Source of the DNA: an uncultured bacterium
Lineage (GTDB): Bacteria > UBP4 > UBA4092
Direction: 5' to 3'
DNA: 64,000 nucleotides
Assembly (NCBI GenBank): GCA_964644695.1
Contig: CAZXWN010000007.1
Coordinates: forward strand, 26,610-90,609
Shown here: positions 12,536 through 64,000 of the stretch, in pieces
Numbering within the stretch: the stretch's first letter is position 1
Layout of the letters: each line of letters begins with the position of its first letter
The notes under the pieces: generated by a model
What the model saw: only the letters and a program-made list of their open reading frames with translations
What the model was told of the DNA's origin: nothing
Databases searched by the model: none
Translations under genes and position numbers: made by a program

Positions 12536-12794
12536 AAAATTTTGGATATCCAGTCTGAATATTTTAACCTGTTATCAAGAGAGCGTCAAAATATCTCCAC
12601 AATATTCAAAATATTTTTATATTTTCAGATTCAATTATCAATAAACATTCCGGTCTTTCGCCGGCAGTGAAATCATCTTTCCACAACTCCATCCCGGGAA
12701 GTGTCCACCGAGTTGCACCATCAACAACACCCCCATATTTCCTTTATTAGTTTTGGAGGGGCTATTGTCATTCCCACGGAAGCAGGGGTCCACA

Positions 12795-14229: not shown

Positions 14230-14290
14230 TATCAATTGTCAAAGACTTCGTCATCCCTTCACTGGAATGACTGGGATAAACCCTTCCATC
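14203..14290. repeat. about 88-bp direct duplication, copy 1 (array-1 terminal repeat plus flank)
   Basis: CCCAGGTGATGGGGTG(t/a)GTCCTGCAACTATCAATTGTCAAAGACTTCGTCATCCCTTCACTGGAATGACTGGG.TAAACCCTTCCATCCC recurs at 14888 to 14976. Confidence 0.85.
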
Positions 14291-14770
14291 CCCAATAACA
14301 TGATCCAAACGCTTTTGACCATAGTGCCAGAGAGTATCTTGTTTGTCAACCTCTAAAAAACAATCAAGCCAGATAATAACAAGGATCCTCAGGGACTCTG
14401 GCTTTTCCCCAGGAATCCACCTGAATCTGACTCGTATTTCAATAATTGACCCGTTCGGTTGATACCTGTCAAGGTCTTCCACAACCCCCTATGAACTCCA
14501 GGTAACTCCTGCGGGAAAGCGTATCATCCACGGAGTTACTCAGAGCAGCTCCGTGCTTCATCCACCAGGTGCCGAGATATGTCTGGATTGGAGGAACATT
14601 GGAAGATCCTTGGACAAAGGACTTCTGGATTCCTGCCTTCGCAGGAATGACAGTTTGAAGTTACGTTTTGACAGATAAGGATAATGAGAAGAAGGGTATT
14701 ACAGTTTTAATTTAATCTTTCCCATAACGAGTATTCATCCCTGTTCTATCTTGTGAAAACCGAACCACCC

Positions 14771-14816
14771 CCCGGCTTCGCCGGACCCCTCCTTGGAAAG
14801 GCGGGGAGCTTTTTTA
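14771..14816 (+). terminator. GC-rich tandem hairpins plus T-run (terminator-like), copy 1
   Basis: CCGGC-ttc-GCCGG then CCCCTCC-ttggaaa-GGCGGGG followed by AGCTTTTTT. An identical element lies at 26196 to 26241. Confidence 0.45.
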
Positions 14817-14887
14817 AACCACAGACACATCAAATCCATGACAACAACGACTGTCATTCCCGCGAAAGCGGGAATCCACATTTCATC

Positions 14888-14976
14888 TCCCAGGTGATGG
14901 GGTGAGTCCTGCAACTATCAATTGTCAAAGACTTCGTCATCCCTTCACTGGAATGACTGGGGTAAACCCTTCCATC
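14888..14976. repeat. about 88-bp direct duplication, copy 2 (solo repeat fragment plus flank)
   Basis: Near-identical to 14203 to 14290, about 685 bp downstream. Contains an orphan partial CRISPR repeat. Confidence 0.85.
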
Positions 14977-15045
14977 CCACTTCCAACCTCTGAAGTGCAT
15001 CAAACATGTCTTTCAAATGGACAGGAACCCTTCCCCATCCACAAC

Positions 15046-16104
15046 CTATTCTTCCATCTCTTCAGGCATGGAAAAATAACCATAACCTGCGGCCGTCTTC
15101 CCACCGGCACCATATTCAGTCACTGCCTTTTCAAAGATTTCTTTAATATTGGTCTCCAAATCGGGAGTGGGGGTACCCAACAGCTTTTCGGCTTCTGGAT
15201 AAAGAGGTTTCAACTGGAACCAGAATTCAAAGACCGTCTCGGGCCGAACCGCCAGAAAGAGAAGTGGATTGGGATCTTGATCATCCGAAGGTGGAGTGGT
15301 GCTGCCCTCCTTATAATATTCTCCATAGTGAGGGGTCATGACATCTATCTGAAGGATATTTTCCTGTCCTGGTACTGGGAGTGCATCAAGACAAACCAAA
15401 AGCCCCCCGGTCTGTTTATTCTCATCAAGCAGAAACTCAATGGTGGATAGGATATCCTTCCAGGGAGAGTCGTCAAACCCTTCCATTTTTTTCCATGGAC
15501 CTATCTTTGCCTTTAATGTTTCAAGTATGGAAATTGGACATTGAGGACCATATTCTTTTTTGTTGTCATCATCAACAGGTCTTCTTACCGTAATGGAACC
15601 AAATAAGACATGGATTTTTTTAAGTGTATTTAGAAAATCATACAAATAATCGGGAACATCTTTATTGCAATCACCCGGCAATTTATGTTCTTTTACTTTT
15701 TCAAGAAAGACATCCACACATTCCATTTCTGCCGTATGATGAAGAAGACCTTTCAGACTGCTGCCCGGGAGATAGGGGAATCCCAGGAAATGATGCAGTT
15801 GTATTCCCGTTTCCAACGCTGGATTGGTACCCCAACCATTCACCATCCGCCAGACCAGAGTGGCTTCATATCTAAATTGCCCTTCCAGAGACTTGATCGA
15901 ACTGGTATATGCCGTATGCCAGGATGCGTACTTTGAATTCATTATCGTATTAACACGACTGGCAATGTCTTCCAGAAAAACTCTTCGCGCTTCTTTGGTT
16001 TCAAAATTATTTGCATTGTCATACTGATGGAATTTATGGTATACCAAGGTGGGGGAAATACCCGCATGGGTTACTGGTGTTCCATTAGCAATCGTAGTAA
16101 TCAT
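15046..16104 (-). CDS. cmr6: type III-B Cmr6 (Cas7-family RAMP)
   Basis: FLGFPYLPGSSLKGLLHH RAMP motif and C-terminal glycine-rich loop GAGGKTAAGYGYF. Last gene of the cmr operon. Start placed at the internal Met (MITTIANG) to avoid the overlap with cmr5. Confidence 0.7.
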   Translation of the reverse strand: MITTIANGTPVTHAGISPTLVYHKFHQYDNANNFETKEARRVFLEDIASRVNTIMNSKYASWHTAYTSSIKSLEGQFRYEATLVWRMVNGWGTNPALETGIQLHHFLGFPYLPGSSLKGLLHHTAEMECVDVFLEKVKEHKLPGDCNKDVPDYLYDFLNTLKKIHVLFGSITVRRPVDDDNKKEYGPQCPISILETLKAKIGPWKKMEGFDDSPWKDILSTIEFLLDENKQTGGLLVCLDALPVPGQENILQIDVMTPHYGEYYKEGSTTPPSDDQDPNPLLFLAVRPETVFEFWFQLKPLYPEAEKLLGTPTPDLETNIKEIFEKAVTEYGAGGKTAAGYGYFSMPEEMEE

Positions 16105-16106
16105 CT

Positions 16107-16487
16107 TTATTCCCCTTTTGCCTCTACAGCCCGTTTCAACCAACCGGCATATTCAATAGCTTCCTCGGTCAAATCCCGTAACTGCGTCCCATTGAGAGGT
16201 CGCTGATTTTGATTGTTTTGATTCCCGATCCACCGTTTAAAAGAATCTTCAGGAGTTCCTTCACACAACTCTCTCATCTGACTATCCAGATAATTATTTA
16301 ACTCTTGAGCAATCTCTGAATACTTACCATCTTTTTTACCTTTTGCCATAAGGAAAGCCCATGTTGCCAACAACCCGTTGGTCCGGAGCAGCATGGGTAA
16401 TTTCTTAGCAATATCTCCATCAATATTCTCGGCAGCAGCATAGGCATATTGTGCCCGGGTCTGTTCACGATTCGGCATCTTTATCAC
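16107..16487 (-). CDS. cmr5: type III-B Cmr5 (Cas11 small subunit)
   Basis: 126 aa alpha-helical protein between cmr4 and cmr6, with the LPMLLRTNGLLATWAFL segment typical of Cmr5. Confidence 0.7.
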   Translation of the reverse strand: MIKMPNREQTRAQYAYAAAENIDGDIAKKLPMLLRTNGLLATWAFLMAKGKKDGKYSEIAQELNNYLDSQMRELCEGTPEDSFKRWIGNQNNQNQRPLNGTQLRDLTEEAIEYAGWLKRAVEAKGE

Positions 16488-16494
16488 TCCTTTT

Positions 16495-17334
16495 CTATAA
16501 CCAAGTCAGGGAAGTCAGACCAAAACCAATAGATTCATGGCCCCCGAAGAACAGGGATTTAGCCGATGGCAGGGCCTCGGTTAATTTCCTCATCACCTTA
16601 TCCCCACTCAAAGTATTACCCTGAGTACGGCTTTGGGTGGCACCGACAAATCCATAGAACACCGATTCGGCAGGAACAGCTTCAACAGAGAACAGCGCGG
16701 TTCCCTCCACAGTTTTCGCAGAGTTTAGTTTATTATGTTGAGTGACAATAGTGGCCTGATTCACCATCTGGAAGAAAGTCCGGTCACTGACATACACCAC
16801 AGAAGGATTTTCTTTTCCAGGGATAGTTATCGGGAATGTAAAATCACCCCCTCGGGAGAATTTATATTCTTCCAGGTAAAGAGATGTATCCCCCTGAGTC
16901 AATCCATAATAGTGGGTGTCATCGGGACTGGGAGGTACTTCCCAGGCAGGATCCTCCGTCCCAAAATATCCCACTTCTTCTTTATAGCGTTTCAGGACAA
17001 AGGGACAAGTGATCCAACAGAACACATTATGAGATGACCGGACGGGGAATAACAGAAGATGGGCATCCACCACAGACACACAACCCGCAGTCATTTCTTC
17101 CAATTCTTTACCGAAAAGAATCTTTGCTTCATCTGGGTTGATCCCCTCATATTTATCACGGAAAACACCCCGGATACCAGAACCCGGCATATAAGGATAA
17201 CCGGTAGTTCGTTCTCGGATCACAGGCAAATCTACCACTCCCACATCCTGGCCACAACCAATATGCAGGGGAGTCACACAGCGGTATAACATGGTTTTGA
17301 ATTGATACTCTGACATCTTATTTATATCCTCCAT
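16495..17334 (-). CDS. cmr4: type III-B Cmr4 (Cas7 backbone subunit)
   Basis: TPLHIGCGQDVGVVDLPVIRERTTGYPYMPGSGIRGVFR and DAHLLLFPVRS match the Cmr4 N-terminal signature, including the catalytic Asp region. 279 aa. Confidence 0.85.
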   Translation of the reverse strand: MEDINKMSEYQFKTMLYRCVTPLHIGCGQDVGVVDLPVIRERTTGYPYMPGSGIRGVFRDKYEGINPDEAKILFGKELEEMTAGCVSVVDAHLLLFPVRSSHNVFCWITCPFVLKRYKEEVGYFGTEDPAWEVPPSPDDTHYYGLTQGDTSLYLEEYKFSRGGDFTFPITIPGKENPSVVYVSDRTFFQMVNQATIVTQHNKLNSAKTVEGTALFSVEAVPAESVFYGFVGATQSRTQGNTLSGDKVMRKLTEALPSAKSLFFGGHESIGFGLTSLTWL

Positions 17335-17340
17335 TTATTC

Positions 17341-18477
17341 TTACTTCATGAATTCATCAACAGCATGACAACCAGGGAAGAGGAGTGTCCCAGTATGACC
17401 TTCAGCGCCAATATCTAAAGGAACACTACCAAAGAATCTAGCCCTTAAAAATAATGCAACACCAATATATTGGTTGGGAGCCAACTCCATTACTTTCAAA
17501 AATAATGGACTGGCTCGACGAGTGACAGCAGCTGTATATTTAATATCCCAACCGTTATTTTGGGATTTTGGATGATAGGGCATCCCATAGGCTATTCGCT
17601 CAGGAATATGCGTAATTGGACCACTAGGATTTGCTGCATCAGCAGCCTCCCATCCATGGTCTTGGAAACCTATTGGCGAAGAAGCGGGAGGATTGAACCG
17701 ATCATACAATCGGACATCCTTGAATCGCTGGTAGAAGTCCTTCCATATCGTATCGTAAGAAGTAGCTACAGGGAACAACTTGCAGGCTGTGTCTGGATTC
17801 CAGAAAGCTGAAAAGGAAGGTTTAGCTTTAGCAACGGATTTCCTCTCAATAAAAGGTGTCCAACCATTTTTTTCAAACCAGTCATTGTAGTTCCCCTGAT
17901 ATTGGGGAATAAAATCCCCAATTACCTTTACAGAACCAAAACCTCGGCGGCTCCTCGCTCCAACACCTCCAAAGAAATGCAGGAGTGTAAGGGCAAGTTT
18001 TAGTCCTTCAATCTGTTCAGGAGTTCCTATTGCCTTAAACCCAAAGGTGGTTCCCGCAGGAATGACATCCCGATACATATTTCTATTATGCGAGGTAGCA
18101 GTTCTATTGCTATACCCCATGGGCCCATATCCAAGATACGCAGCTGCTGAACCTGCTCCTGCCACTAAAGGTTCTGCTTTAAAGTCTGGTATCTCAGTCG
18201 GTATGATCCTAACCCCCTGATAACGTTTCGCATCTCCAAATACTTTCGATTCTTCTTCCTTCAACCTTTCCAGAGAAAGCCCTCCATGAATAGACCGGTA
18301 CCAAAACCGAAGGACTCCCTTTAGAGAGGGAATACGGAGACCATCTCCATCCGGACCAATGATGCGATGTTGTGTAGGTTTACCCTGATTATCAAAAACG
18401 CCCGGAACTTTTTTATTCATAGCGCCGGCAATAAATGCGGGTGTAACCAGTTTTATCTTGAATTCCAATACAGGCAT
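17341..18477 (-). CDS. cmr1: type III-B Cmr1-like RAMP (Cas7 family)
   Basis: LRIPSLKGVLRFWYRS motif (RAMP G/S-S-hKG plus RFW.R) and a glycine-rich segment. 378 aa. Assignment to Cmr1 rather than another Cas7 paralogue comes from the motif and from elimination of the other subunits. Confidence 0.5.
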   Translation of the reverse strand: MPVLEFKIKLVTPAFIAGAMNKKVPGVFDNQGKPTQHRIIGPDGDGLRIPSLKGVLRFWYRSIHGGLSLERLKEEESKVFGDAKRYQGVRIIPTEIPDFKAEPLVAGAGSAAAYLGYGPMGYSNRTATSHNRNMYRDVIPAGTTFGFKAIGTPEQIEGLKLALTLLHFFGGVGARSRRGFGSVKVIGDFIPQYQGNYNDWFEKNGWTPFIERKSVAKAKPSFSAFWNPDTACKLFPVATSYDTIWKDFYQRFKDVRLYDRFNPPASSPIGFQDHGWEAADAANPSGPITHIPERIAYGMPYHPKSQNNGWDIKYTAAVTRRASPLFLKVMELAPNQYIGVALFLRARFFGSVPLDIGAEGHTGTLLFPGCHAVDEFMK

Positions 18478-18495
18478 ATATGGTTCTCCTTTACC

Positions 18496-19434
18496 TCATA
18501 AAGGTTCTGTAACAGGGTTTTCTTCCCAAACATTGTTCAATATAATTCCAATTCCCATATTGATACTGACTAAAAGAAGTAATGTAGAAAAATCAGGTTC
18601 GATCGCTGTAAGCAGGGGATATCCCAGGAGAACAATCAGCGTAGAATGAGAAAAACCCGTAACTACCACCATCCCCGCGCGCTTCATCAGGCTCGTCTGC
18701 GGGACCCCATGCTCCAGACGATGCGCTATTTCCAACATAAGATAACCGGTAGAAATCAGAACCACCACAGCCGAATAAAAGAGAAGTAAACAGGGGGGAG
18801 GTTTTAATACTTGCTCCACAACGCTATCTGCGGTCAATAGAAAGAGAAAACCGACCAGTGCGGTAGCAGCTAATCGAGGGATCAAAGACTGGATAGCATT
18901 CAACCATGGAACACCACAACAATGCATCATAAGGAGAATCATAAAATATCCAGCAACAGGCAGAAGCCATGCAACCCCGGAAGAGAACATCCACAGCCCT
19001 AATAATGGAAATAAAAGCATGATCATGGGAACCAGCCATGCACCATCCGAGCAAAACCCATACACCTGCCGCGCATAATCCAAACGATACCGCCGTAAAA
19101 ACCAATAGAAGAAATGGTCCTGATAGTAAGCCCACGTTATAATACTCTGCTTATCATTTAATTCATCTTTTACGAAGATTAACTTTCCATTATTTATACT
19201 ATTAGTAATATTTAGAAGGTGCTCGTCCCTGCTAATGTTGCTATATTTTTCCCAAAAAGCTTTAGAGGAACCACACATTCTTGATGGCTCATTTGACATC
19301 ACCCACTTGATCCAATGTAATAATGAGTCAACTTTCTTGCATGACTCAACATCCTTCAAAACAGTAACGCAATCATCGTACTGTTGAAGAGATTCATTAA
19401 TTTGTTTGGAGGTATCAATATCGTCTAATTTCAT
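18496..19434 (-). CDS. CRISPR-associated integral membrane protein: about 130-aa soluble N-terminal domain plus 6 predicted TM helices. Candidate effector.
   Basis: Hydrophobic segments at roughly aa 135 to 155, 158 to 180, 190 to 212, 222 to 245, 262 to 285 and 290 to 308. Its start overlaps the stop of the upstream CARF gene (ATGA at 19431 to 19434). Embedded between cmr1 and the CARF gene. Confidence 0.6.
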   Translation of the reverse strand: MKLDDIDTSKQINESLQQYDDCVTVLKDVESCKKVDSLLHWIKWVMSNEPSRMCGSSKAFWEKYSNISRDEHLLNITNSINNGKLIFVKDELNDKQSIITWAYYQDHFFYWFLRRYRLDYARQVYGFCSDGAWLVPMIMLLFPLLGLWMFSSGVAWLLPVAGYFMILLMMHCCGVPWLNAIQSLIPRLAATALVGFLFLLTADSVVEQVLKPPPCLLLFYSAVVVLISTGYLMLEIAHRLEHGVPQTSLMKRAGMVVVTGFSHSTLIVLLGYPLLTAIEPDFSTLLLLVSINMGIGIILNNVWEENPVTEPL

Positions 19435-20201
19435 TTGAAGTCACGATTATATCGACTAGGTTCATAAGCGGCGGGCTGATCATTATGATCAAGACCAATT
19501 TCATATACCTTATTACTTTTAGATGATTCATGAAGATAGATTGCAATCACCTTATCTTTTTTCAACAAACGAGCCGGATGAATCCCATAGATTTTATACC
19601 CTCCGCTGATATTGAAAACCAATTCAGCCCATTCAGCTCCAAGCATGTTCACATATTTTTCACAGGCAGCTGAATATTCCCTCATAGCACCCGTTAAAGA
19701 GCCAGGCTCTGTTGCTGAAAAATCATTTATAGGTTCAAGATCTACTTCCCATCCAGAGAAGTCAGTCATCCATTTCTCTAAATAAGCCTTTGTATGCTTT
19801 GCGATTGCACGACTATCATTATTACCTTCGTCACAAAACAGAACGACCTTATACTCTGACAGATTTTCTTTCCAGAATTTGCCATGATCAATAGATTGAA
19901 CATACAGCAGTGTTGTCGCGATTTCAGCACTATACCTCATTTCAGAACCAAGCGCTGGGTCTACCAAAGCCTGTAAGAAATGGGTAACATTATTCTCACT
20001 ATTGAGAATCTTTGTACTAAGATCTTCTTTTATTGTTGTAGCATTTTCTGATGTAGCTCTGGAAGATGGAAGTCCATAAAAAGGAGTCCACTCTGGATAG
20101 GCCTTTGGCATCCATCCAGCAAAATTCCAAGAGGCAGAAGTATATAGAGAAGTCCCAATGGTGATTATGAGAAGTTTATTTTGTTGCTGTGTTTTTTTCA
20201 T
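19431..20201 (-). CDS. CARF-domain protein (cOA sensor or ring nuclease), 256 aa, no fused effector domain
   Basis: KLLIITIGTSLYTSASW (CARF beta1-GTS motif) and LVFNISGGYKIYG (second CARF signature, h-T/S-GG-x-K). No HEPN R-x4-6-H, PIN or wHTH motif detected. Confidence 0.6.
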   Translation of the reverse strand: MKKTQQQNKLLIITIGTSLYTSASWNFAGWMPKAYPEWTPFYGLPSSRATSENATTIKEDLSTKILNSENNVTHFLQALVDPALGSEMRYSAEIATTLLYVQSIDHGKFWKENLSEYKVVLFCDEGNNDSRAIAKHTKAYLEKWMTDFSGWEVDLEPINDFSATEPGSLTGAMREYSAACEKYVNMLGAEWAELVFNISGGYKIYGIHPARLLKKDKVIAIYLHESSKSNKVYEIGLDHNDQPAAYEPSRYNRDFK

Positions 20202-21366
20202 AATTATCGTCTTTCAATCCTTCCAGATGTTTTTTTATCCACAACAGTCTTTTAGAAAGATGTCTGTCAACCACATGGCCCTGACACCAATTTTTTACAA
20301 TACAAAAGGAATCATCCCAAACCAATTGGTTTGTTACTGCTATTAGGAATAATTTATATTCTTCTGTCTTTCCCTTTTTTGCTTTCGCTAAACAAAAGGC
20401 AGCAGTTTTCTCCAAGCCCTGAAGTTTCCATCGAGTTTCAAAATCACAAGCAATCGTGAATATTTTCTTTTGGAGTTCTGGAGTCCATTTGCTAACCAAA
20501 CCAAAAGTATCTATAAAACACTTTTCATAGATATACTCGGGTTCTTGATTTATGGTCTGAATTTCTGGCTGACCTTTTGTTTGAGAAACTTCACAGATGT
20601 CTATAAAGCCTTTTCCACAATTTTCTGAACTCCCTGCCTGATATTGACCCGCCAATCTGATGTCAGCAGGGATTTCTTTACTAAGATTTATCTGAGAGAT
20701 AAAGATGGATCGTGATGGAATATATTCAATCTTGCGCAGGCTTTTCCCTTCAGCAACGCCATAATCCGTTATTTTTGTTTGTTTAAAAACAACTCTGACT
20801 TGATCCCACATTTTCTTAGCGATATTGTCACCCGCAACAATCCAACGACTTCTTTTATCAATTCCCGATAAGATAAAAAGAGCCGAAATATCATAGTTAC
20901 CTAAACAAAAGCATGGATAATTGAACGAATTTGTAACTTTTCCCGTCCAATCATCTTCAGCAATGTAATTAAAAGTTGTTGCATCAAAACCTATTAATTT
21001 ACAAATCGCCATCAGATTGGACAGAGGGAAAACCCAGTGAATGACACCGTTTAGATCTGGAAAGGGGAAACACAACAGAATCCCATCGCCAAAAACTATA
21101 CGGCTGGGAATCCTTTGAGTTAAGAATTTTCCATCTTCACCTATACTTCCGTCTGGTGAGCCAAATATTTCCGTTCGTTTTGTATTCAAAAGGACATTCT
21201 CCAGCCGGCCAGCAATAACCCCTTTGAGTGCACTATCCGGAATAATAGGGAGGCCGGAATAGGCATCCTTCTGGGTAGGCCGGTCAATTGTAGAAGTTCC
21301 TGTTCCCGCGCCAAAATTGGCAGGTGTTATGAGTTTGATTCTGAGGAATTGTTTTTCCATTACCAT
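20176..21366 (-). CDS. additional Cas7-family RAMP with about 140-aa C-terminal extension of unknown function
   Basis: GLPIIPDSALKGVIAGRLE RAMP motif and G-rich loop GQYQAGSSENCGKGF, then a further extension with no recognisable motif. Start taken at the MVMEKQ Met overlapping the cmr3 stop (ATGGTAATGG). Confidence 0.55.
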   Translation of the reverse strand: MVMEKQFLRIKLITPANFGAGTGTSTIDRPTQKDAYSGLPIIPDSALKGVIAGRLENVLLNTKRTEIFGSPDGSIGEDGKFLTQRIPSRIVFGDGILLCFPFPDLNGVIHWVFPLSNLMAICKLIGFDATTFNYIAEDDWTGKVTNSFNYPCFCLGNYDISALFILSGIDKRSRWIVAGDNIAKKMWDQVRVVFKQTKITDYGVAEGKSLRKIEYIPSRSIFISQINLSKEIPADIRLAGQYQAGSSENCGKGFIDICEVSQTKGQPEIQTINQEPEYIYEKCFIDTFGLVSKWTPELQKKIFTIACDFETRWKLQGLEKTAAFCLAKAKKGKTEEYKLFLIAVTNQLVWDDSFCIVKNWCQGHVVDRHLSKRLLWIKKHLEGLKDDNYEKNTATK

Positions 21367-22502
21367 ACCCCCACAAATACCCGGCCTAACCCCGTATGAT
21401 AATACGAGGTTTGAAGACAGGCCATCCAATGATCTTTAATGATTTTCTCTTTTGATATTTCTTCCGGCCAGGTGTAATAGAAAATAGACCCCGCAGGATA
21501 AAGCCAGAGCATTTCCCGGGGTTGATGTGCCATGGCATCCCAGCCACTGATATAAACAGGTTTACCTAAAGCAGCAGCGACAGGGGCCTGATTTACAACT
21601 TTCGGATAGGAATCTTCAACCAACATCGGAGTCATCAAATACAGGAAGAAACCTTTTGAGGCTTGTGCTTTATTTGTAACCTTCTGTCTCAAGTCTTCAA
21701 AGGGAGCTTGACTCTCACTGGCATTCACAGATACTCTTCGGAGGTCTCCCCCACAAAAGCCTGTACGCGATTTCAGTTGTGTAGTCTCCAGGGTTTGATA
21801 CCATAAGACAAATCGAGCTGTCTCATAAGCCGCGCCCGGATTCACTTTACCTTTAAAACGGCGATAGGGTCGATTAAACAAATAACTTTCGACTGTCTGG
21901 TTGGTTGCATTATTCATCATCAGACCAATCCGGTTTTCCCGTCGCCATAATTCTTTGGGCTCTATCCATTGGTGGCGGATATCGCCATCGACATCCCCAG
22001 TCAAGACCTTTTGCAGTAAATCAATACTTACAAGGATATCCATTGTATCTTCTTGATATCCACCATCCCTGATTGGTTCTGTCTTTAATAAGTGAGTTTT
22101 CATCTTTAGATCTATAGAGCTGGCCATTGGCTCCGTATCCCGGGGGACTGGAGTCAACAAATCATGGATGTATTTTGCAGCTGGATTTATGGGGCTGGAT
22201 TTTAACCGCAGACATAAGGGTTTAGGAAACCAGATTTTTCCATCAGGACCTTGCAGAGCATATCCAGCAAGTGAAGCAGTACCCTCATTTTTATCAGCAA
22301 TGGTTGACAGCTTTTTTCCTAATACTTTTTCATCCCATTTTTTATCATTCAAATCAAGGAAATACTGAACCACCGCTCCATGTAAAGTCAGTGGAGAAGG
22401 GTCTTGATACTCAAACTGATGGTCCATCCCCGGTCGAGTGGACCGGCTATCGCTAAACAGAAGAGGGTCTAACGGACTCAATGTTATCTCATGCCAGACC
22501 AT
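21360..22502 (-). CDS. cmr3: type III-B Cmr3 (Cas5-family)
   Basis: ITLSPLDPLLFSDSRS and DPSPLTLHGAV match the Cmr3 N-terminal signature (LDpLfFRDgRPF ... PPsPsTlaGAl). C-terminal HTGLGRVFVG glycine loop. Confidence 0.8.
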   Translation of the reverse strand: MVWHEITLSPLDPLLFSDSRSTRPGMDHQFEYQDPSPLTLHGAVVQYFLDLNDKKWDEKVLGKKLSTIADKNEGTASLAGYALQGPDGKIWFPKPLCLRLKSSPINPAAKYIHDLLTPVPRDTEPMASSIDLKMKTHLLKTEPIRDGGYQEDTMDILVSIDLLQKVLTGDVDGDIRHQWIEPKELWRRENRIGLMMNNATNQTVESYLFNRPYRRFKGKVNPGAAYETARFVLWYQTLETTQLKSRTGFCGGDLRRVSVNASESQAPFEDLRQKVTNKAQASKGFFLYLMTPMLVEDSYPKVVNQAPVAAALGKPVYISGWDAMAHQPREMLWLYPAGSIFYYTWPEEISKEKIIKDHWMACLQTSYYHTGLGRVFVGVW

Positions 22503-22504
22503 GA

Positions 22505-24250
22505 TTATTTTGCCTCCATGCTTTTGATGCCCCATTCATTGGACAGGAATGCCACCAGATGAAACCAAGTGGGGATCTGTTCCAGATGAGCCGGTTTTTC
22601 AGTCCACCATGTAGCACCATTAAGAGTGTCCCAGATGGTGTTTTTTTCTGTGTTATTTAGTTTCGGAGACAGCCTGCGGAAGGTCAACCGTTTAACTTCA
22701 CATCGAATGGCATTTCTACCCATGGGGCTATCCCAAGTGTTGGAGTCCAGAGATTCCAGGAAGGATTCCACATCATAGGCCCATCCCATGGATAACGTTC
22801 CTTCTTCAATTAATTTCAACACTTCATTAAACCGGCTCCAGCTGTCCCACTTATCCGCAGTGTACCATTCATTCCCAGAGGCAGTCTGAACAGCCACAGC
22901 CAGCGCATCTTTCCCCATCACTTTCTTGGCATAATGTTCCAAAGCCACCCTTGCCGCCATTTCTAATCCCCGAGACATGGGGCGCTGCCGGTCGAAAAAG
23001 GAGATACCCACAGAGAGGGTTGCACCGGTTGCAATACTCCCATTCCAAAGTTTATGTATTTCTGTTGCCAGTGGGAAAACTTTCTCCACGGGACAAAGGA
23101 TCATACCCTCATCCCCCCCCAAATATAGAGAGGTACAACAGTGTTCTTCTACTTTTGGTCTCAGGTCTTTTGTAAATTGAAGGAGTTTTTCAGGAAGGGA
23201 ATCCATGTGCTGACGGATTTTCTCACCCATAGAATCGCCATCAAAAGTCAGCGCTGCAAGATATTGGGAAGGTTCATCTTTCACTGTTTTACCTGACTTG
23301 CCTGCTGCATTAATCGCCGTTTTGACGATACCGTTCCATTTGTCTCTTTTATCACTAAGTTCTGGGAATAGTATGGCTTTGGCGGCCCAGGACCGTTTGT
23401 ATATCAAGGGATATTTGTCACTGAGTTTATAGTCCGAGCAGTCCTCTTTAAAAATTTCCGATACTTTTTCTTCAAGGCCAAGTTCCTTTAACCAGAAGGC
23501 GGCGGCAATCTGGGAGGTTGAAGGGAAGGAATCCTCTTCACTCAGATAACTTGCCAACCGTTTTATCAAACAGATACCACATAGCCGCTCATTCTCATCA
23601 ATCCGAAATCCTTTTTTTACAAAATCTTTGTCAGCAAGGTCCTTATGGAATTTATTCCATTCTGGGAAAGTTGTTTCCCCAATAGCTTCTCGTTTTCCAC
23701 ACTGGTTACACTTACCTACAGGGTAACCTTTCCAGGGATAAATAGGACGAGTTTGTTTGACGGCAGAATAGAGCTTTTCTAAATCCTCGTAACAGTTGGG
23801 ATCGTTTTGGTTATATTCCTTGATGACCCAGACTAAATCAAAGGGACATTTTATACAATTCAGAAAGCCTCTCACTTCATGCCATAGTGATACATAAGTC
23901 CCGTCGGCAAAAGCAACTTCCGTTAACAAACCATGCCAGGCATCACGGATTTGCTTTTTACCCTTTGCCATCCTTATTTTTGCCTCTTCCAATGACACGT
24001 CATCTTTCCAATACCCGGTAGCTCGATTAGGAAGGTTGTATTGGTCGCTATCATAATGGGACTTAAAATCCCCAAGCGACAGTTCACCCGTTAATTTGGG
24101 AAGAACGATTTCGGTTGGGCTGATTTGTACCAAGACTTGTTTCATCATCCAGGACAGGAGAACAGAACCTGCCTTCAGATCTCTGGACCGGGTGGCCTCC
24201 AGAATAAAATCCTGGACGGGGATAATACCAATTGTCCAGTAAACGGTCAT
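22505..24250 (-). CDS. cas10: Cas10/Cmr2 large subunit lacking an HD nuclease domain, with GGDE cyclase-palm motif
   Basis: About 580 aa. ALTFDGDSMG (first palm) and LYLGGDEGMIL (second palm, GGDD-like). Treble-clef Zn finger CNQCGKRE...CGICL between them. No N-terminal H-D motif. Positioned between cas6 and cmr3. Confidence 0.7.
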   Translation of the reverse strand: MTVYWTIGIIPVQDFILEATRSRDLKAGSVLLSWMMKQVLVQISPTEIVLPKLTGELSLGDFKSHYDSDQYNLPNRATGYWKDDVSLEEAKIRMAKGKKQIRDAWHGLLTEVAFADGTYVSLWHEVRGFLNCIKCPFDLVWVIKEYNQNDPNCYEDLEKLYSAVKQTRPIYPWKGYPVGKCNQCGKREAIGETTFPEWNKFHKDLADKDFVKKGFRIDENERLCGICLIKRLASYLSEEDSFPSTSQIAAAFWLKELGLEEKVSEIFKEDCSDYKLSDKYPLIYKRSWAAKAILFPELSDKRDKWNGIVKTAINAAGKSGKTVKDEPSQYLAALTFDGDSMGEKIRQHMDSLPEKLLQFTKDLRPKVEEHCCTSLYLGGDEGMILCPVEKVFPLATEIHKLWNGSIATGATLSVGISFFDRQRPMSRGLEMAARVALEHYAKKVMGKDALAVAVQTASGNEWYTADKWDSWSRFNEVLKLIEEGTLSMGWAYDVESFLESLDSNTWDSPMGRNAIRCEVKRLTFRRLSPKLNNTEKNTIWDTLNGATWWTEKPAHLEQIPTWFHLVAFLSNEWGIKSMEAK

Positions 24251-25359
24251 ACGACACCCTCTCTTTCTGGTTTCATACAATGTATTTCATGACGGGGTCC
24301 ACTTTGTGTTTTCAGGTTAAGTTGATACCGTCCAAATCCATACTCAGTTTTTGAACCCACGCCCATGATCGCTCCCAGTTGGAGCCAGGGGATAAAGGGT
24401 GTCAGTTCTCCGGTATAAAAAGCAGTCCCCTGATATCCCTTTAATTTGATTTTTCCCGGGCCCGACTCAGGTCCAAAAGTTATTCTTTCCAAACGGCTGT
24501 GGATAGATTCCGCTTTCAGGATCAATTCCGAGAAACAAAACTCTTTTTCCAAATCCCGGCCGGTATAAAACCAGGCCAACAAGGATAGCCGGCGAAGCAG
24601 GCTTTGGATCAGAGCCGGAAACAGGGGAGGACAAAACATTTGATTGGGCTTTGCATATTTTTTACTTTTTATCAGGATGGGCCGTTGAAAATCTATCCGT
24701 ATCTGATCGGGAACAGACGAGGTATTTCTGTCCAGCGGGATCTCTTTGGCTCCGGGATACAGGTATTCCGTCAACCAGGTTTTATCATAGATTGGGCGAG
24801 TGACCCAGGTATGGTCTGGCTGACGGGTCTGGACAGCAACCAGTCTCAGGCGATGCCCGACATCCCCTACTCCCCGGTCACCCAGTTTCTCAAAGGCATG
24901 TAAAATCTCAGGGAGATCGTTCAGGCTCCGGCCCACAAGAGTCAATCCAACCACCAGCGAATCCTTTTTGTTTAGATAGGCCGGTAACGGTTGGGGGAAA
25001 TCCAGGATAAAGGGATGCGGTTTGTAGTCCATCTTGATCCGGTGTTCTTCACCGGCGATGATGGGAGTCCGGAACACTCGGGCAAAGGGACATTTTCTGG
25101 AATGGGAACGATACTCAGGACAGTCCTCTTCCCGACAGGGTTCTCCCGCAGGACAGGGAGATATTTCCTTGAGCTGGTTCCCAAACAATCCATGGAAAAA
25201 AGCAGCATCCCATCCACGATTGGTAGTAAAGGACTCAAGTGTCTCATATATAATTTTGAACTGCCAGAAAGGTATTATCCCTAACCCCTTTGGTCCATCC
25301 ACTGTTATTATTTGTTCTGCCATAGCGCCGTTAATCAATCCCCCAGATTGAATCAGCAT
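24247..25359 (-). CDS. cas6: Cas6-family crRNA endoribonuclease with Cys-rich insertion
   Basis: C-terminal GVGSKTEYGFG fits the Cas6 glycine-rich loop G-h-G-x5-G-h-G. First gene of the operon, adjacent to array 2. Unusual CPAGEPCREEDCPEYRSHSRKCPF cluster. Confidence 0.5.
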   Translation of the reverse strand: MLIQSGGLINGAMAEQIITVDGPKGLGIIPFWQFKIIYETLESFTTNRGWDAAFFHGLFGNQLKEISPCPAGEPCREEDCPEYRSHSRKCPFARVFRTPIIAGEEHRIKMDYKPHPFILDFPQPLPAYLNKKDSLVVGLTLVGRSLNDLPEILHAFEKLGDRGVGDVGHRLRLVAVQTRQPDHTWVTRPIYDKTWLTEYLYPGAKEIPLDRNTSSVPDQIRIDFQRPILIKSKKYAKPNQMFCPPLFPALIQSLLRRLSLLAWFYTGRDLEKEFCFSELILKAESIHSRLERITFGPESGPGKIKLKGYQGTAFYTGELTPFIPWLQLGAIMGVGSKTEYGFGRYQLNLKTQSGPRHEIHCMKPEREGVV

Positions 25360-25816
25360 TTTGTACAGGAATTTTATTTTCAGGACGGATGCAGGTATCC
25401 CTACCCCACAAGCAGGCTCAATATATCAAAGCTAATTAGTCAATGTCAAGTTTTATTTTTTAAAATTTTAAATGAAATAATCCTATTTTTTGGGATGAAT
25501 TATTGATGGGGCAAGTGGTATGGGTCTTAGAGGTCCCATGGGTCCGATAGGTCATAGTTCCCCAGATGATAGGAGGTGGTCCTGTGAGGAAACGTACCGT
25601 CCACAAGATTACAAGATGTGTCTGGATTGGAGGACCATTGAAAGATCATTGGACAAAGAACTTTTGGATTCCTGCTTTCGCAGGAATGACAGTCTGAAGT
25701 TATGCCTTGATGAATCCCCCAGGTGATGGGGTGAGTCCTGCAGGTCTTTCCAACAGCGGTTTATCAGGATTGGGGTTTTTGTTGCAACCCCCAGGGGGTG
25801 GGGTGTGTATTCCAAT

Positions 25817-25990
25817 GAAGATAATTATAGTTTCAGTTTTATAAAATAACTATCCTGTTCATGCCTTCACCAAACTCCTCCTTCAATACCTTTCAGACCA
25901 AACCAACCAATCGAATCTCTTAATGAAGTCTTGGACAAAGGACTTCTGGATTCCTGCTTTCGCAGGAATAACAGTCTGAAGTTATGTCTT
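25817..25990. repeat. leader-like module copy (AT-rich segment plus conserved 110 bp with ATTCCTGC-TTTC-GCAGGAAT hairpin)
   Basis: Near-identical copy at 26670 to 26843. Partial copies at 25590 to 25708, 26338 to 26412, 27407 to 27481 and 14585 to 14660. Variant copies carrying the GC-rich terminator-like hairpin instead lie at 26104 to 26242 and 14740 to 14880. Confidence 0.8.
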
Positions 25991-26195
25991 GATGAATCCC
26001 CCAGGTGACGGGGTGTGTCCTGCAGGGTCTCACTCTCTAATCCGATAGAGACCTGTGGTGTCTCAACGTTGCAACCCCCAGGTGATGGGGTAAGTATTTC
26101 GATGAAGATAATTATAGTTTCAGTTTCATAAAATAACTATTCTGTTTATACCTTCACTAAACTTCTCCTTCAATACCTTTCAGACCGAACCACCC

Positions 26196-26241
26196 CCCGG
26201 CTTCGCCGGACCCCTCCTTGGAAAGGCGGGGAGCTTTTTTA
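26196..26241 (+). terminator. GC-rich tandem hairpins plus T-run (terminator-like), copy 2, immediately upstream of mini-array 3
   Basis: Identical to 14771 to 14816 (CCGGCTTCGCCGG ... CCCCTCCTTGGAAAGGCGGGGAGCTTTTTT). Confidence 0.45.
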
Positions 26242-28127
26242 AAACCAATCCCCCAGGGGGTGGGGTATGTCCTGCAGGAGTGAATCTGGCAAGAGCACCC
26301 TGGGACGCTATTTAGTTGCAACCCCCAGGTGATGGGGAATCTTAATGAAGTCTTGGATAAAGAACTTCTGGATTCCTGCTTTCGCAGGAATGACAGCCGG
26401 AAGTTATGTCTTAATGAATCCCCCAGGGGGTGGGGTGTGTCCTGCAGGTCTTTAAAACTTTCCCTGATAAATTTTTGAATTGGGTGTTGCAACCCCCAGG
26501 TGATGGGGTGAGTCCTGCAGGACAACTAAAGCTGCGGAAGTAGAAGTGGCAGTCTCGCAAGGTTGCAACCCCCAGGTGACGGGGTGAGTCCTGCAGGTTC
26601 TGCAAAAGTTCTATTGATTTTTTCAGCAATATCGTTGCAACCCCCAGGTGACGGGGTAAGTGTTCCAATGAAGATAATTATAGTTTCTATTTCATAAAAT
26701 AACTATCCTGTTTATACCTTCACCAAAATTCTTCTTTAATGCCTTTCAAACCGAACTAATCAATCGAATCTCTTAATGAAGCATTGGATAAAGAACTTCT
26801 GGATTCCTGCTTTCGCAGGAATGACAGTCTGAAGCTATGTCTTGATGAATCCCCCAGGTGATGGGGTGAGTCCTGCAGGATATTCACTGAGTCTGACACA
26901 GTGATACATGCTGCGAATGGTTGCAACCCCCAGGTGATGGGGTGAGTCCTGCAGGTTCACATGAACCTCGATCTCGAAGAGAAAGGTTTGTTTCCTGTTG
27001 CAACCCCCAGGTGATGGGGTGAGTCCTGCAGGAATATAAAGAAACTTTGGATACCACAGGACAGGCTGGGTTGTTGCAACCCCCAGGGGGTGGGGTGAGT
27101 CCTGCAGGCCGTAAGGAAATGCCTGCTGCATTGTTTCGCCGTAATCAGTTGCAACCCCCAGGTGATGGGGTGAGTCCTGCAGGGTAGTATTGAAAACTAC
27201 TCGGTGGGTGCTAGAAACCGGTTGCAACCCCCAAGTGATGGGGTGAGTCCTGCAGGTATTTTACAATCCATATTCATATCAATACGAATCTTTTCCGTTG
27301 CAACCCCCAGGTGACGGGGTGTGTCCTGCAGGATATTGATCTGTAAACTCACAAAGGGCTGTTGTTTGATGTTGCAACCCCCAGATGATAGGGTGATTCT
27401 TGATAAAGATAATTATAGTTTCAGTTTTATAAAATAACTATCTACCTTCACCATAACCTTCCTTCAATACCTTTTGAACCAAACCAATCCCCCAGGTGAT
27501 GGGGTGTGTCCTGCAGGCTCAGGGCGAATGGGCGTATGCCGAGACTATGCATTGGTTGTTGCAACCCCCAGGTGATGGGGTGAGTCCTGCAGGATTGGAA
27601 AAGAAGTTACTATTTATGTCTTTATTGGTTGCAACCCCCAGGTGATGGGGTGAGTCCTGCAGGTGCACCCCATCTAACCCTAATAAAATCAGGGGCGGGG
27701 AAGGCCATTTTCGGGGGTGACGATAAGACCTGCTTGACAAACCCCTCTAATGGTCCGGTTTTGGTATTTAAGTCAAATATTATCAATAGTCGGTGCTGAC
27801 AACCTGCTCATTTTCTGATAACCTGTTGATTGTCAAAGACTTCGCCATTCCTTTGCCGGAATGACAGGGTGTTTCAGGGTGTGCCCCGATGTCTTTTCGT
27901 ATCAGAGAGTTAGTTCATTTGTCAAAAAGACAGGGGAAAACCCTCTATCCCAATAAGGTATCCAGACCCGATTCGTATCTGCTTCGTTACTTTTGGATAT
28001 CGTGCCAAACATGAACCGTACCTGTCAAGTTACCTTAATTAAGTTCTTTTGTAAAGAGGGGGAAAGTGAGGGGGAGGAGAAAAGAAACGGGGCGGAAGGA
28101 AATCCGCCCCGGAGGTAAGTCTATTTT

Positions 28128-62255: not shown

Positions 62256-62396
62256 ACAAAGTCTCTCCTGACTTATAAGATTTAAAAACCCCAAGCTAGT
62301 GAGCTAATCCATTCATAAATATATTCTTACCTGAATCACTATTTATTAAAACAAGGTCATATTAACATAAGTTATCTTACCTTTTACTATTTATTT

Positions 62397-63889: not shown

Positions 63890-64000
63890 ACAAGTCTCTC
63901 CTGACTTATTTAATTTTAAAAACCCCAAATTAATGAGCTACTCTATTCATAAATATCATGTTAGTTACATCGCCATTTATGCGCGCAATGCCATATTAAC

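What the first reader, a model, noticed from the sequence alone, without database searches (positions are those of the whole stretch)
25590..27663. CRISPR array fragmented into six mini-arrays, each behind its own copy of a leader-like module
Between 25.7 and 27.7 kb the array is split into six blocks of 1 to 7 spacers. Every block is preceded by a conserved module of up to about 190 bp. In two blocks this consists of an AT-rich TATAAAAT-containing segment plus a 110-bp conserved segment with a perfect hairpin. In one it is the AT-rich segment plus a GC-rich terminator-like hairpin. The other three keep only one of the two parts. Every block except the last ends in a repeat degenerate over its last 12 nt or so. 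This looks like repeated tandem duplication of leader-repeat units, or leader invasion of the array, rather than ordinary spacer acquisition. It would give multiple promoters inside one array. Some intra-array modules carry terminators, implying transcriptional insulation of the blocks.
Basis: seen in the sequence. Interest (0 to 1): 0.6.

Follow-up and report, generated by a model that had tools for sequence, protein, structure and literature searches.

The report
CRISPR array broken up by flank copies
A real CRISPR array next to a type III-B (Cmr) gene cluster is cut into six short blocks by five diverged copies of the non-repeat DNA that also borders the arrays of this strain-variable island; this looks like old recombination that leaves every spacer usable, which is curious but not a new kind of system.

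Summary
Window 25709-27663 holds 21 copies of a 36-nt repeat in six blocks of 1, 1, 1, 3, 7 and 2 spacers. Five non-repeat modules separate the blocks. They are built from three segments: A (AT-rich), B (an 80-nt imperfect palindrome around a dRS3-like hairpin) and T (a GC hairpin followed by a T-run).

- The array is most likely read on the minus strand, the same strand as the adjacent cas6-cmr operon. B would then follow one block as a trailer. A would precede the next block, and it carries the only promoter-like match conserved in all four copies.
- The modules do not resemble the flank conserved next to the second array (12795-14229). They do match array-boundary DNA elsewhere in the island (25590-25708 and 14561-14831).
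- T also sits at the otherwise empty site of a ~98% identical strain that lacks the whole 15-kb CRISPR-Cmr island.
- All 34 spacers are unique, module copies are 82-94% identical, boundary repeats are degenerate, and the window holds no cas1 or cas2.

I read this as old recombination or concatenation of array units, not spacer acquisition and not assembly collapse. Every junction keeps the repeat hairpin, so all 15 spacers should still be processed by Cas6. Promoter and terminator roles remain untested. Interest is moderate.

The parts
25709..27663 (-). Array 2: 21 repeats of 36 nt and 15 unique spacers in six blocks (25709-25816, 25991-26103, 26243-26350, 26413-26669, 26844-27406, 27482-27663). 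The + strand repeat is GTTGCAACCCCCAGGTGATGGGGTGAGTCCTGCAGG. The minus strand is inferred to be the crRNA strand.
25817..25990 (-). Module M1, A+B (A about 25817-25914, B about 25915-25990). It is flanked by a repeat degenerate in 25805-25816 and by a repeat whose first 7 nt are GATGAAT (25991-25997).
   Evidence: (families D3, D6, D7, D8)
26104..26242 (-). Module M2, A+T. T (26184-26243) is 100% identical to 14759-14818 and 97% identical to the empty-site sequence of the strain in L129.
26351..26412 (-). Module M3, B only. B sequence starts at 26339, directly after repeat position 23.
26670..26843 (-). Module M4, A+B. It is 89% identical to M1 over 246 nt, flanking partial repeats included.
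   Evidence: (family D7)
27407..27481 (-). Module M5, A only, with a 7-nt deletion.
25824..25852 (-). Promoter-like match TAGTTA-17-TATAAT on the minus strand of A. It is conserved in all four A copies (also 26111-26139, 26677-26705, 27412-27440). The predicted start falls at the first, degenerate repeat of the block to its left. It lies in the best-conserved 41 nt of A.
   Evidence: (family D8); consensus match only
25590..25708 (-). Long form of B bordering block 1. It holds the hairpin GGATTCCTGCTTTCGCAGGAAT and is 86% identical to 14561-14671.
25560..25589 (-). Decayed repeat copy beyond B, on the inferred trailer side of array 2.
   Evidence: alignment score 30; highest of 2000 shuffles 22
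27657..27674 (.). Inverted partial repeat directly after the last repeat. It shares the palindrome CCTGCAGG and can pair with the last repeat.
27829..27869 (-). A 41-nt stretch 85% identical to the flank that directly abuts array 1 and the orphan repeat. It is the candidate ancestral leader, here displaced from the array by 165 nt.
12795..14229 (-). Array 1: 20 repeats and 19 spacers, uninterrupted, same repeat and same orientation. The first 7 nt of its leftmost repeat are replaced.
14230..14292 (-). A 63-nt flank of array 1, 98% identical to the flank of the orphan repeat (14916-14978).
14482..14915 (-). Region X, a collapsed paralogue of array 2. In order: decayed repeat (14482-14515), copy of the native hairpin (14526-14553), long B (14561-14671), diverged A' (14672-14758), T plus 13 nt of empty-site sequence (14759-14831), a hairpin that fits the dRS3 consensus ATTCCCN8GGGAAT exactly (14853-14877), and the orphan repeat (14880-14915).
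15046..25359 (-). Type III-B operon: cas6, cas10/cmr2, cmr3, a Cmr4-like RAMP protein, a weak CARF/Csm6-like protein, a weak membrane-protein match, cmr1, cmr4, cmr5, cmr6. A strong sigma-70-like promoter lies at 25449-25420 on the minus strand.
12748..27964 (.). Strain-variable CRISPR-Cmr island, absent from a ~98% identical strain (L129). In that strain the MFS transporter gene and the alpha-galactosidase gene are 493 nt apart.

Best explanation
Array 2 is a genuine but evolutionarily static CRISPR array of a type III-B (Cmr) island that has no adaptation genes in the window. It is most likely transcribed on the minus strand, like the cas6-cmr operon.

It is a concatenation or mosaic of array units. 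Five diverged copies of array-boundary DNA sit exactly in spacer positions. On the minus strand each copy reads: a terminal repeat degenerate in its last 7 nt, then B (a trailer with a dRS3-like hairpin), then A (AT-rich and promoter-like), then a first repeat degenerate in its first 12 nt.

The pieces come from the edges of the arrays in this island. M2 carries T, a sequence that also occupies the integration site in a strain without the island. M2 is therefore probably the original gap between two neighbouring arrays. The other modules are probably copies spread by unequal recombination or gene conversion through the identical CRISPR repeats. Their partial forms would arise by small deletions at short shared sequences such as the AAT shared by ...CCAAT and ...TGAAT.

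Every junction keeps the 17-nt hairpin core. So every spacer still has a hairpin plus the 8-nt GUUGCAAC handle upstream and a hairpin downstream, and Cas6 should still release all 15 crRNAs. The module RNA would be released without a proper handle and lost.

Shown: the anatomy, the paralogy, the strain polymorphism and the uniqueness of the spacers. Inferred: the orientation, the recombination history, the Cas6 processing and any promoter activity of A.
For: Anatomy and paralogy:
- Block and module layout.
- The modules occur only at array borders within the 64-kb window.
- Region X (14482-14978) is colinear with array 2 plus its flank: decayed repeat, long B, A, T, repeat lacking its first 7 nt, conserved flank.
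- T lies in the empty site of L129. B borders native DNA in a third haplotype, L134.

Age and inactivity:
- A copies are 82-91% identical and B copies 83-93%.
- All 34 spacers are unique, with no match elsewhere in the window.
- No cas1, cas2 or transposase among the window ORFs scanned.

Orientation (minus strand):
- On that strand the repeat reads 13 nt, then the hairpin CCCCA-UCACC-UGGGG, then GUUGCAAC. This is the layout of Cas6-processed type III repeats with an 8-nt handle (established knowledge; sequence).
- The stem variants in the 7 spacer-flanking repeats that carry one (T19C in six, G20A in one) keep pairing as G-U only in minus-strand RNA.
- The rightmost repeat of array 2 matches the consensus, while the left ends of both arrays are truncated.
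- The flank at the right ends is conserved at 98% over 63 nt.
- Decayed repeats lie on the left side.
- The + strand of the spacers has G>C (272 v 212) and more open frames (62 v 52), as expected if crRNAs are antisense to mRNAs.
- The only promoter-like match conserved in all four A copies is on the minus strand, in the best-conserved part of A (8/41 v 19/47 variable columns, p=0.04).
- T is a canonical terminator only on the + strand. If the array were read on the + strand it would cut off 13 of the 15 spacers.
Against: - No transcript data. Orientation rests on sequence logic, and each single argument is modest.
- The promoter match is 9 of 12 with a weak -35 hexamer. The + strand TATAAAAT reaches 8 of 12. 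Overall hit counts equal the shuffled expectation.
- No related array could be found for comparison, so the order of events is a reconstruction.
- A' in region X is barely alignable to A while the adjoining T is 100% identical. Simple duplication does not explain this.
- All junction types fall within 1 nt of the base of the hairpin, and a RATGAAK motif marks all three junction types. This hints at a more specific mechanism than general recombination.
- Block order cannot be checked without reads. An independent unitig assembly (Logan contig L001) breaks inside B.
Confidence: 0.55

Rival explanations
1. The array is read on the + strand. Each A(+B) module is a duplicated leader with its own promoter (TATAAAAT). 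Each block ends in a repeat degenerate at its 3' end. T insulates the blocks transcriptionally.
For: - In the + orientation every block ends in a repeat degenerate over its last 12 nt, the classic terminal-repeat signature.
- B also precedes block 1.
- A carries a conserved (T/C)ATAAAAT (family D8).
- T is a good + strand terminator.
- A weak + strand promoter-like site lies at 25437-25466, divergent from the cas6 promoter.
Against: - The + strand handle would be CCUGCAGG, placed 5 nt beyond the hairpin, unlike known type III handles.
- The stem variants in spacer-flanking repeats break the hairpin in + strand RNA.
- The first repeat of every block lacks 7 nt while the internal repeats are intact, so no acquisition occurred at these 'leaders'.
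- In M2 the terminator would lie between the supposed promoter and its own block.
- Apart from one non-conserved hit in M5, the modules have no + strand promoter match reaching 9 of 12.
- Array 1 has neither A nor B at its + strand upstream end.
Confidence: 0.15
2. The modules are insertions of a small non-autonomous mobile or recombination element. It would be REP-, MITE- or NIME-like, built around the dRS3-type hairpin. A hairpin-directed transposase or recombinase encoded elsewhere in the genome would target it to the base of the CRISPR-repeat hairpin.
For: - The B hairpin is a dRS3-type inverted repeat. The pattern ATTCCCN8GGGAAT is matched exactly at 14853-14877, and dRS3 is a known recombinase target in Neisseria (PMC1797815).
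- The same 27-mer occurs in at least 120 loci of many phyla and forms tandem modules in other genomes.
- All junctions lie within 1 nt of the base of the repeat hairpin, and each module is flanked by the same 17 nt of repeat.
- A RATGAAK motif occurs at all junction types, 10 times against 1.4 expected.
- Internal modules read A then B, while boundary units read B then A without a gap, like circular permutations of one element.
Against: - No terminal inverted repeats of 9 nt or more.
- The apparent duplication flanking the blocks is not significant.
- No A, B or T copies away from the CRISPR borders in 64 kb, and no transposase or recombinase in the window.
- Only the 27-nt hairpin is shared with other genomes; the rest of the module is not.
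- Copies are 6-18% diverged, so nothing points to recent activity.
Confidence: 0.15
3. Assembly artefact: a misjoin or mis-ordering of reads from several arrays, or from several strains, created the apparent mosaic.
For: - At least three haplotypes of this locus exist in public samples.
- A k-mer based assembly of run DRR182650 breaks inside B and at the first repeat.
- Repeats of 36-190 nt are hard to assemble from short reads.
Against: - Module copies all differ from one another (82-94% identity), and every spacer-repeat-module junction is unique. Collapse or duplication by an assembler would give identical copies.
- Independent contigs from DRR182650 confirm the left island junction (L131, 99.95%) and the cas6-to-B stretch (L001, 100% over the 105 nt of B compared).
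- The block order itself remains unverified.
Confidence: 0.05

Closest known systems
Ordinary CRISPR array with a leader and a degenerate terminal repeat; neighbouring arrays that share flanks
   Same: 36-nt hairpin repeat, unique spacers of 34-41 nt, adjacent cas6 and cmr genes, a degenerate repeat at the array end, and arrays on both sides of the effector operon.
   Different: Five internal non-repeat modules sit in spacer positions, each bounded by half-degenerate repeats. The modules are unrelated to the flank conserved next to the other array. The window holds no adaptation genes.
CRISPR arrays interrupted by IS elements or MITEs
   Same: Non-repeat DNA inside an array, present in several copies.
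   Different: No transposase, no terminal inverted repeats and no significant target duplication. The insert is a copy of the array's own border DNA, and the junctions spare the Cas6 hairpin.
Neisserial intergenic mosaic elements (NIME): dRS3 inverted repeats ATTCCCN8GGGAAT flanking 50-150-bp RS segments (PMC1797815)
   Same: The hairpin at 14853-14877 fits the dRS3 consensus exactly, and the B hairpin differs by one complementary pair. The modules form a mosaic of about 60-110-nt segments next to strain-variable DNA. In Neisseria, NIME arrays are proposed recombination substrates.
   Different: This is not Neisseria. The hairpins are few and confined to the CRISPR borders in this window. The modules are bounded by CRISPR repeats rather than by dRS3 on both sides. 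No dRS3-specific recombinase was seen.
Degenerate mini-arrays that regulate or addict cells to cas genes (CreTA/CreR type); named from my own knowledge, not checked in a paper here
   Same: Degenerate repeats next to a cas promoter (25560-25589, about 110 nt from the cas6 promoter).
   Different: No spacer-like segment matches any promoter or other site in the window. Such systems are described for DNA-binding effectors, not for Cmr.

Membership tests
CRISPR array | Near-identical direct repeats of 23-50 nt, regularly spaced by unique spacers of similar length | tested here: met
   The 29-nt repeat core (up to 3 mismatches) finds 35 copies against 0 expected by chance; a looser scan finds 42. 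The 34 spacers are 34-41 nt long and all unique.
CRISPR array | Adjacent cas genes, including a crRNA-processing nuclease | tested here: met
   Cas6 matches PADLOC at E=7e-48. The cmr genes lie directly between the two arrays.
Type III-B (Cmr) system | Cas10/Cmr2 together with Cmr3, Cmr4, Cmr5, Cmr6 and Cmr1 | tested here: met
   NCBIfam equivalog models for Cmr2, Cmr4, Cmr5, Cmr6 and Cmr1 score above their cut-offs. Cmr3 scores 74.6 bits against a cut-off of 100.4, but Pfam Cas_Cmr3 is recorded for the identical gene in L001.
CRISPR leader (applied to modules A and B) | Lies directly upstream of the first repeat in the direction of transcription | tested here: inconclusive
   The direction is inferred, not measured. 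On the favoured minus strand A is upstream of blocks 1, 2, 4 and 5 and B is downstream of blocks.
CRISPR leader (applied to modules A and B) | Conserved between arrays of the same repeat type in one genome | tested here: not met
   Neither A nor B is similar to the 63-nt flank shared by array 1 and the orphan repeat, or to its 41-nt counterpart at array 2.
CRISPR leader (applied to modules A and B) | Abuts an intact repeat that is copied when a spacer is acquired | tested here: not met
   The module-proximal parts of the boundary repeats are degenerate (7 or 12 nt) while all internal repeats are intact.
CRISPR leader (applied to modules A and B) | Contains the array promoter | tested here: inconclusive
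   TAGTTA-17-TATAAT on the minus strand is present in all four A copies. It is only a consensus match, and hit counts equal the shuffled expectation.
MITE or IS-derived insertion | Terminal inverted repeats and a target-site duplication | tested here: not met
   No inverted repeat of 9 nt or more in the cassette. The similarity between the end of B and the start of A scores below the 95th percentile of shuffles.
MITE or IS-derived insertion | Dispersed copies at unrelated genomic sites | not testable with these tools
   None in the 64-kb window outside the CRISPR borders. The rest of the genome could not be read.
dRS3/NIME-type repeat | A 20-bp inverted repeat ATTCCCN8GGGAAT | tested here: met
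   14856-14875 reads ATTCCCGCGAAAGCGGGAAT. B carries ATTCCTGCTTTCGCAGGAAT. The definition is from PMC1797815.
dRS3/NIME-type repeat | Hundreds of copies per genome, flanking RS segments in arrays, with a cognate recombinase | not testable with these tools
   Seven or eight copies in the window, all at CRISPR borders. The genome-wide count and any recombinase are unknown.
Intrinsic terminator (segment T) | GC-rich hairpin followed by a U-tract on the transcribed strand | tested here: inconclusive
   The pattern is met on the + strand. The fold is no more stable than shuffles (z=-0.4). The + strand is probably not the array's transcribed strand.
CreTA/CreR-type regulatory mini-array | A spacer-like segment partly complementary to a promoter of the locus | tested here: not met
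   The modules match only each other, and the spacers have no significant match elsewhere in the window.

The most novel reading that the evidence does not exclude
The A/B/T modules and the CRISPR blocks are cassettes shuffled by a hairpin- or site-directed recombination system. It would be dRS3/NIME-like and act at the base of the CRISPR-repeat hairpin and at the RATGAAK junction motif. That would be a Cas1-Cas2-independent way of moving, joining and re-promoting blocks of CRISPR memory in a type III-B island that lacks adaptation genes.
Probability: 0.07. Interest if true: 0.75.

Novelty: new variant of a known kind. Interest (0 to 1): 0.4.

Why it matters
If the structure and the inferred orientation hold, this is a natural case in which a CRISPR array without adaptation genes nearby is remodelled by recombination of its own border DNA. 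Exactly the parts of each repeat that Cas6 needs are kept, and promoter-like segments may have been added in front of distal blocks.

It is also a practical caution for annotation. Array finders will split the locus into several small arrays and may orient them wrongly. Degenerate repeats at both ends of each block defeat the usual rule that the degenerate repeat marks the trailer.

Three haplotypes of one locus exist in ~98% identical strains: no island, this island, and a third junction. That makes the history testable by read mapping. The wide spread of dRS3-type hairpins outside Neisseria is a separate lead.

Tried and rejected
- Target-site duplication. The last ~18 nt of B resemble the start of A, but the alignment score (16) is below the 95th percentile of shuffles (18). 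Dropped.
- Right edge of the island. I first thought window 27915-27964 was a diverged copy of the empty-site sequence between T and the native hairpin. The local alignment is not significant (score 15 against a 95th percentile of 16). I therefore place the right edge at about 27964, where BLAST homology resumes.
- Protospacers to fix the crRNA strand. No match for either array in the phage or plasmid collections; the only plasmid hits were to the B hairpin and weak chance matches. Four leader-proximal spacers had no match in viral contigs.
- Related arrays. The repeat core is absent from the metagenome and viral collections. Cas6 has no relatives in the protein search. The nearest Cmr4 relatives with long contigs (57% identity) have the same operon but no array within reach. 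An 88% relative sits on a 2.1-kb contig.
- Caveat on the metagenome scans. The scan for T found nothing, although JGI contig L129 carries that exact 27-mer. Negative scans of that collection are therefore not exhaustive.
- Rfam. No family reaches its gathering score. Below threshold there are only weak CRISPR-DR hits on both strands and chance hits.
- Hairpin and CRISPR association. The 27-nt hairpin is not linked to CRISPR arrays in other genomes: 4 of 121 loci show array-like repeats.
- CreTA/CreR-type regulation. No complementarity to any promoter.
- Literature. Searches for duplicated or internal CRISPR leaders gave no natural precedent in the held library.
Full report
**Observation.** The region holds a genuine CRISPR array. 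A 29-nt repeat core occurs 35 times in the window, with none in 100 shuffles. A looser scan and a profile search give 42 copies of a 36-nt repeat, GTTGCAACCCCCAGGTGATGGGGTGAGTCCTGCAGG on the + strand. Twenty form an uninterrupted array 1 (12795-14229), one is an orphan repeat (14880-14915), and 21 form array 2 (25709-27663).

In array 2 the gaps between repeats are spacer-sized (34-41 nt) except for five gaps of 174, 139, 62, 174 and 75 nt.

The long gaps are built from three segments:
- A is AT-rich and has four copies.
- B is about 80 nt, an imperfect palindrome around GGATTCCTGCTTTCGCAGGAAT. It has four copies in array 2 including a long form in front of block 1, plus one at 14561-14671.
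- T is a GC hairpin plus a T-run at 26184-26243. It is 100% identical to 14759-14818.

The last repeat of blocks 1-5 is degenerate after position 24, with 5-7 of its last 12 nt retained. The first 7 nt of the first repeat of every block are replaced.

**Context.** Between the two arrays lies a type III-B operon on the minus strand (15046-25359). It encodes cas6, cas10/cmr2, cmr3, a second Cmr4-like RAMP protein, a weak CARF/Csm6-like protein, a weak membrane-protein match, cmr1, cmr4, cmr5 and cmr6. A strong promoter-like site lies at 25449-25420. No cas1, cas2, transposase or recombinase was found among the window ORFs scanned; the neighbours are housekeeping genes.

**The modules are the arrays' own border DNA.** Within the window A, B and T occur only at CRISPR borders.
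- Left of block 1 lie the long form of B and then a decayed repeat at 25560-25589 (score 30 against a shuffle maximum of 22).
- Between array 1 and the operon, region X reads: a borderline decayed repeat (14482-14515, score 20), long B, a strongly diverged A', T, a hairpin, the orphan repeat, and a 63-nt flank.
- That order is colinear with array 2 read from its left border through T to its right flank, where 41 nt of the same flank lie at 27829-27869.
- X is therefore a collapsed paralogue of array 2, and the two paralogues flank the cmr operon as direct repeats.

**Strain comparison.**
- A JGI metagenome contig (L129) is ~98% identical over 20 kb but has the MFS transporter gene directly followed by the alpha-galactosidase gene. 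The whole island (window 12748 to about 27964) is missing.
- The 129 nt at its empty site hold T plus 13 further nt, 94.6% identical to 14759-14831 and 97% to 26182-26247. They also hold a small hairpin with a copy at 14526-14553.
- A third haplotype (ENA contig L134) has B, then 62 nt, then that native hairpin and the right chromosomal flank.
- T thus also marks the island's insertion site in a strain without the island. M2 (A+T) most simply marks an old boundary between two arrays, not an insertion designed to insulate them.
- Contigs from an independent k-mer assembly of run DRR182650 confirm the left island junction (99.95%) and the cas6-to-B stretch, and they break in the repeats.

**Age and mode.** A copies are 82-91% identical and B copies 83-93%. 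All 34 spacers are unique and none matches elsewhere in the window. This excludes assembly collapse and simple tandem duplication of leader-spacer units. Acquisition at the internal modules is excluded because it would have copied the degenerate boundary repeats, whereas the internal repeats are intact.

The partial modules look like deletion derivatives:
- M5 and M2 join ...CCAAT directly to the repeat where M1 and M4 have ...CCAAT-B-...TGAAT.
- M3 joins repeat position 23 to the start of B.
- The T-less copies look like a deletion between two AACCA repeats.

**Orientation.** I favour the minus strand at roughly 80%.
1. On that strand the repeat reads CCUGCAGGACUCA, then the hairpin CCCCA-UCACC-UGGGG, then GUUGCAAC. 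This is the hairpin-plus-8-nt-handle layout of Cas6-processed type III repeats, for example GGGG-AUUGCGAC in Thermus (my own knowledge of the family).
2. In the seven spacer-flanking repeats that carry a stem variant (T19C in six, G20A in one), pairing survives as G-U only in minus-strand RNA. The single opposite case is the orphan repeat, which has no spacer.
3. The rightmost repeat of array 2 is a perfect consensus copy, while the left ends of both arrays are truncated.
4. The right-hand flank is 98% conserved between array 1 and the orphan repeat.
5. Decayed repeats lie on the left side.
6. The + strand of the spacers is G-rich (272 v 212) and has more open frames (62 v 52). This is expected if crRNAs must be antisense to mRNAs. 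It is weak evidence.
7. T is a canonical terminator only on the + strand.
8. The only promoter-like match present in all four A copies, TAGTTA-17-TATAAT, is on the minus strand. Its predicted start falls at the first, degenerate repeat of the next block. It lies in the best-conserved part of A (p=0.04).

None of this is transcript evidence. Promoter and terminator hit counts equal the shuffled expectation.

**Function.** On either strand every spacer keeps an intact hairpin-bearing repeat part on both sides. On the minus strand the first repeat of each block keeps positions 13-36 (hairpin plus handle), and the last repeat keeps positions 1-29, up to the predicted Cas6 cut. All 15 spacers should therefore still give crRNAs. 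The module RNA would be released without a handle. A may add internal promoters, and B may act as a stable 3' hairpin, since its loop is GAAA on the minus strand. These are inferences.

**Unexplained.**
- All junction types fall within 1 nt of the base of the hairpin, in five different sequence contexts.
- A RATGAAK motif marks all three junction types, 10 times in 2 kb against 1.4 expected.
- T is identical between X and M2 while A' and A barely align.
- Internal modules read A then B, whereas border units read B then A without a gap.
- An inverted partial repeat follows the last repeat (27657-27674).

These points keep a hairpin- or site-directed recombination mechanism alive as a minority reading. 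The B hairpin is a dRS3-type inverted repeat as defined in Neisseria (ATTCCCN8GGGAAT, PMC1797815). Its 27-mer occurs in at least 120 loci of many phyla, with no conserved flanks. It forms tandem modules in other genomes.

**Verdict.** This is a new variant of a known kind, of moderate interest.

Noticed in passing
window 12748-27964; L129 13495-13987; L134 7008-7286: The whole CRISPR-Cmr island is strain-variable. A ~98% identical strain (JGI 3300021167) has the MFS transporter and alpha-galactosidase genes 493 nt apart, with only T and a small hairpin between them. A third strain (ENA ERZ778038) has B, 62 nt, then that hairpin next to the right flank.
   Followed up: partly
window 14853-14877, 25666-25690, 25948-25972, 26370-26394, 26801-26825, 14627-14651, 12767-12791; loci L002-L121: The hairpin in B is a dRS3-type inverted repeat (ATTCCCN8GGGAAT; one window copy, at 14853-14877, fits the consensus exactly). 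The 27-mer GGATTCCTGCYTTCGCAGGAATRACAG occurs in at least 120 loci from many bacterial phyla and one archaeal genome, with no conserved flanks. NIME/dRS3 arrays were described as specific to Neisseria (PMC1797815).
   Followed up: partly
window 27657-27674: Directly after the last repeat of array 2 the + strand carries an inverted copy of the repeat's CACCCCATC, joined through the palindrome CCTGCAGG. In the fold it pairs with the last repeat in place of the Cas6 hairpin (z=-2.2 on the minus strand).
   Followed up: partly
window 24247-25359 (-): The Cas6 protein found no relative other than itself in the 5.8-billion-sequence word-indexed search, although it matches PADLOC and Pfam Cas6 models well. 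Related cmr operons (57% Cmr4 identity) carry a Cas6 with the same domain pair.
   Followed up: no
window 18496-20201 (-): Two genes inside the cmr operon have no Pfam match. One (256 aa) has weak CARF/Csm6-like hits. The other (312 aa) has a weak hit to a membrane protein of defence systems. Together they may form a cyclic-oligoadenylate effector pair. In related loci the product of the gene at the position of the 256-aa ORF carries Cas_APE2256.
   Followed up: partly
window 60837-62294 and 62462-63928 (-): Tandem paralogues, 72% identical, about 485 aa, with a signal-peptide-like N-terminus and an internally repetitive sequence. No Pfam family.
   Followed up: partly
L129 13737-13763: The metagenome-contig scan returned no match for a 27-mer that is present exactly in JGI contig L129. 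Negative scans of that collection do not prove absence from JGI metagenomes.
   Followed up: yes
window 25709-27663 (+ strand): The motif RATGAAK occurs 10 times in array 2 (1.4 expected) and never on the other strand. Every occurrence is at a repeat|A, A|B or B|repeat junction.
   Followed up: partly
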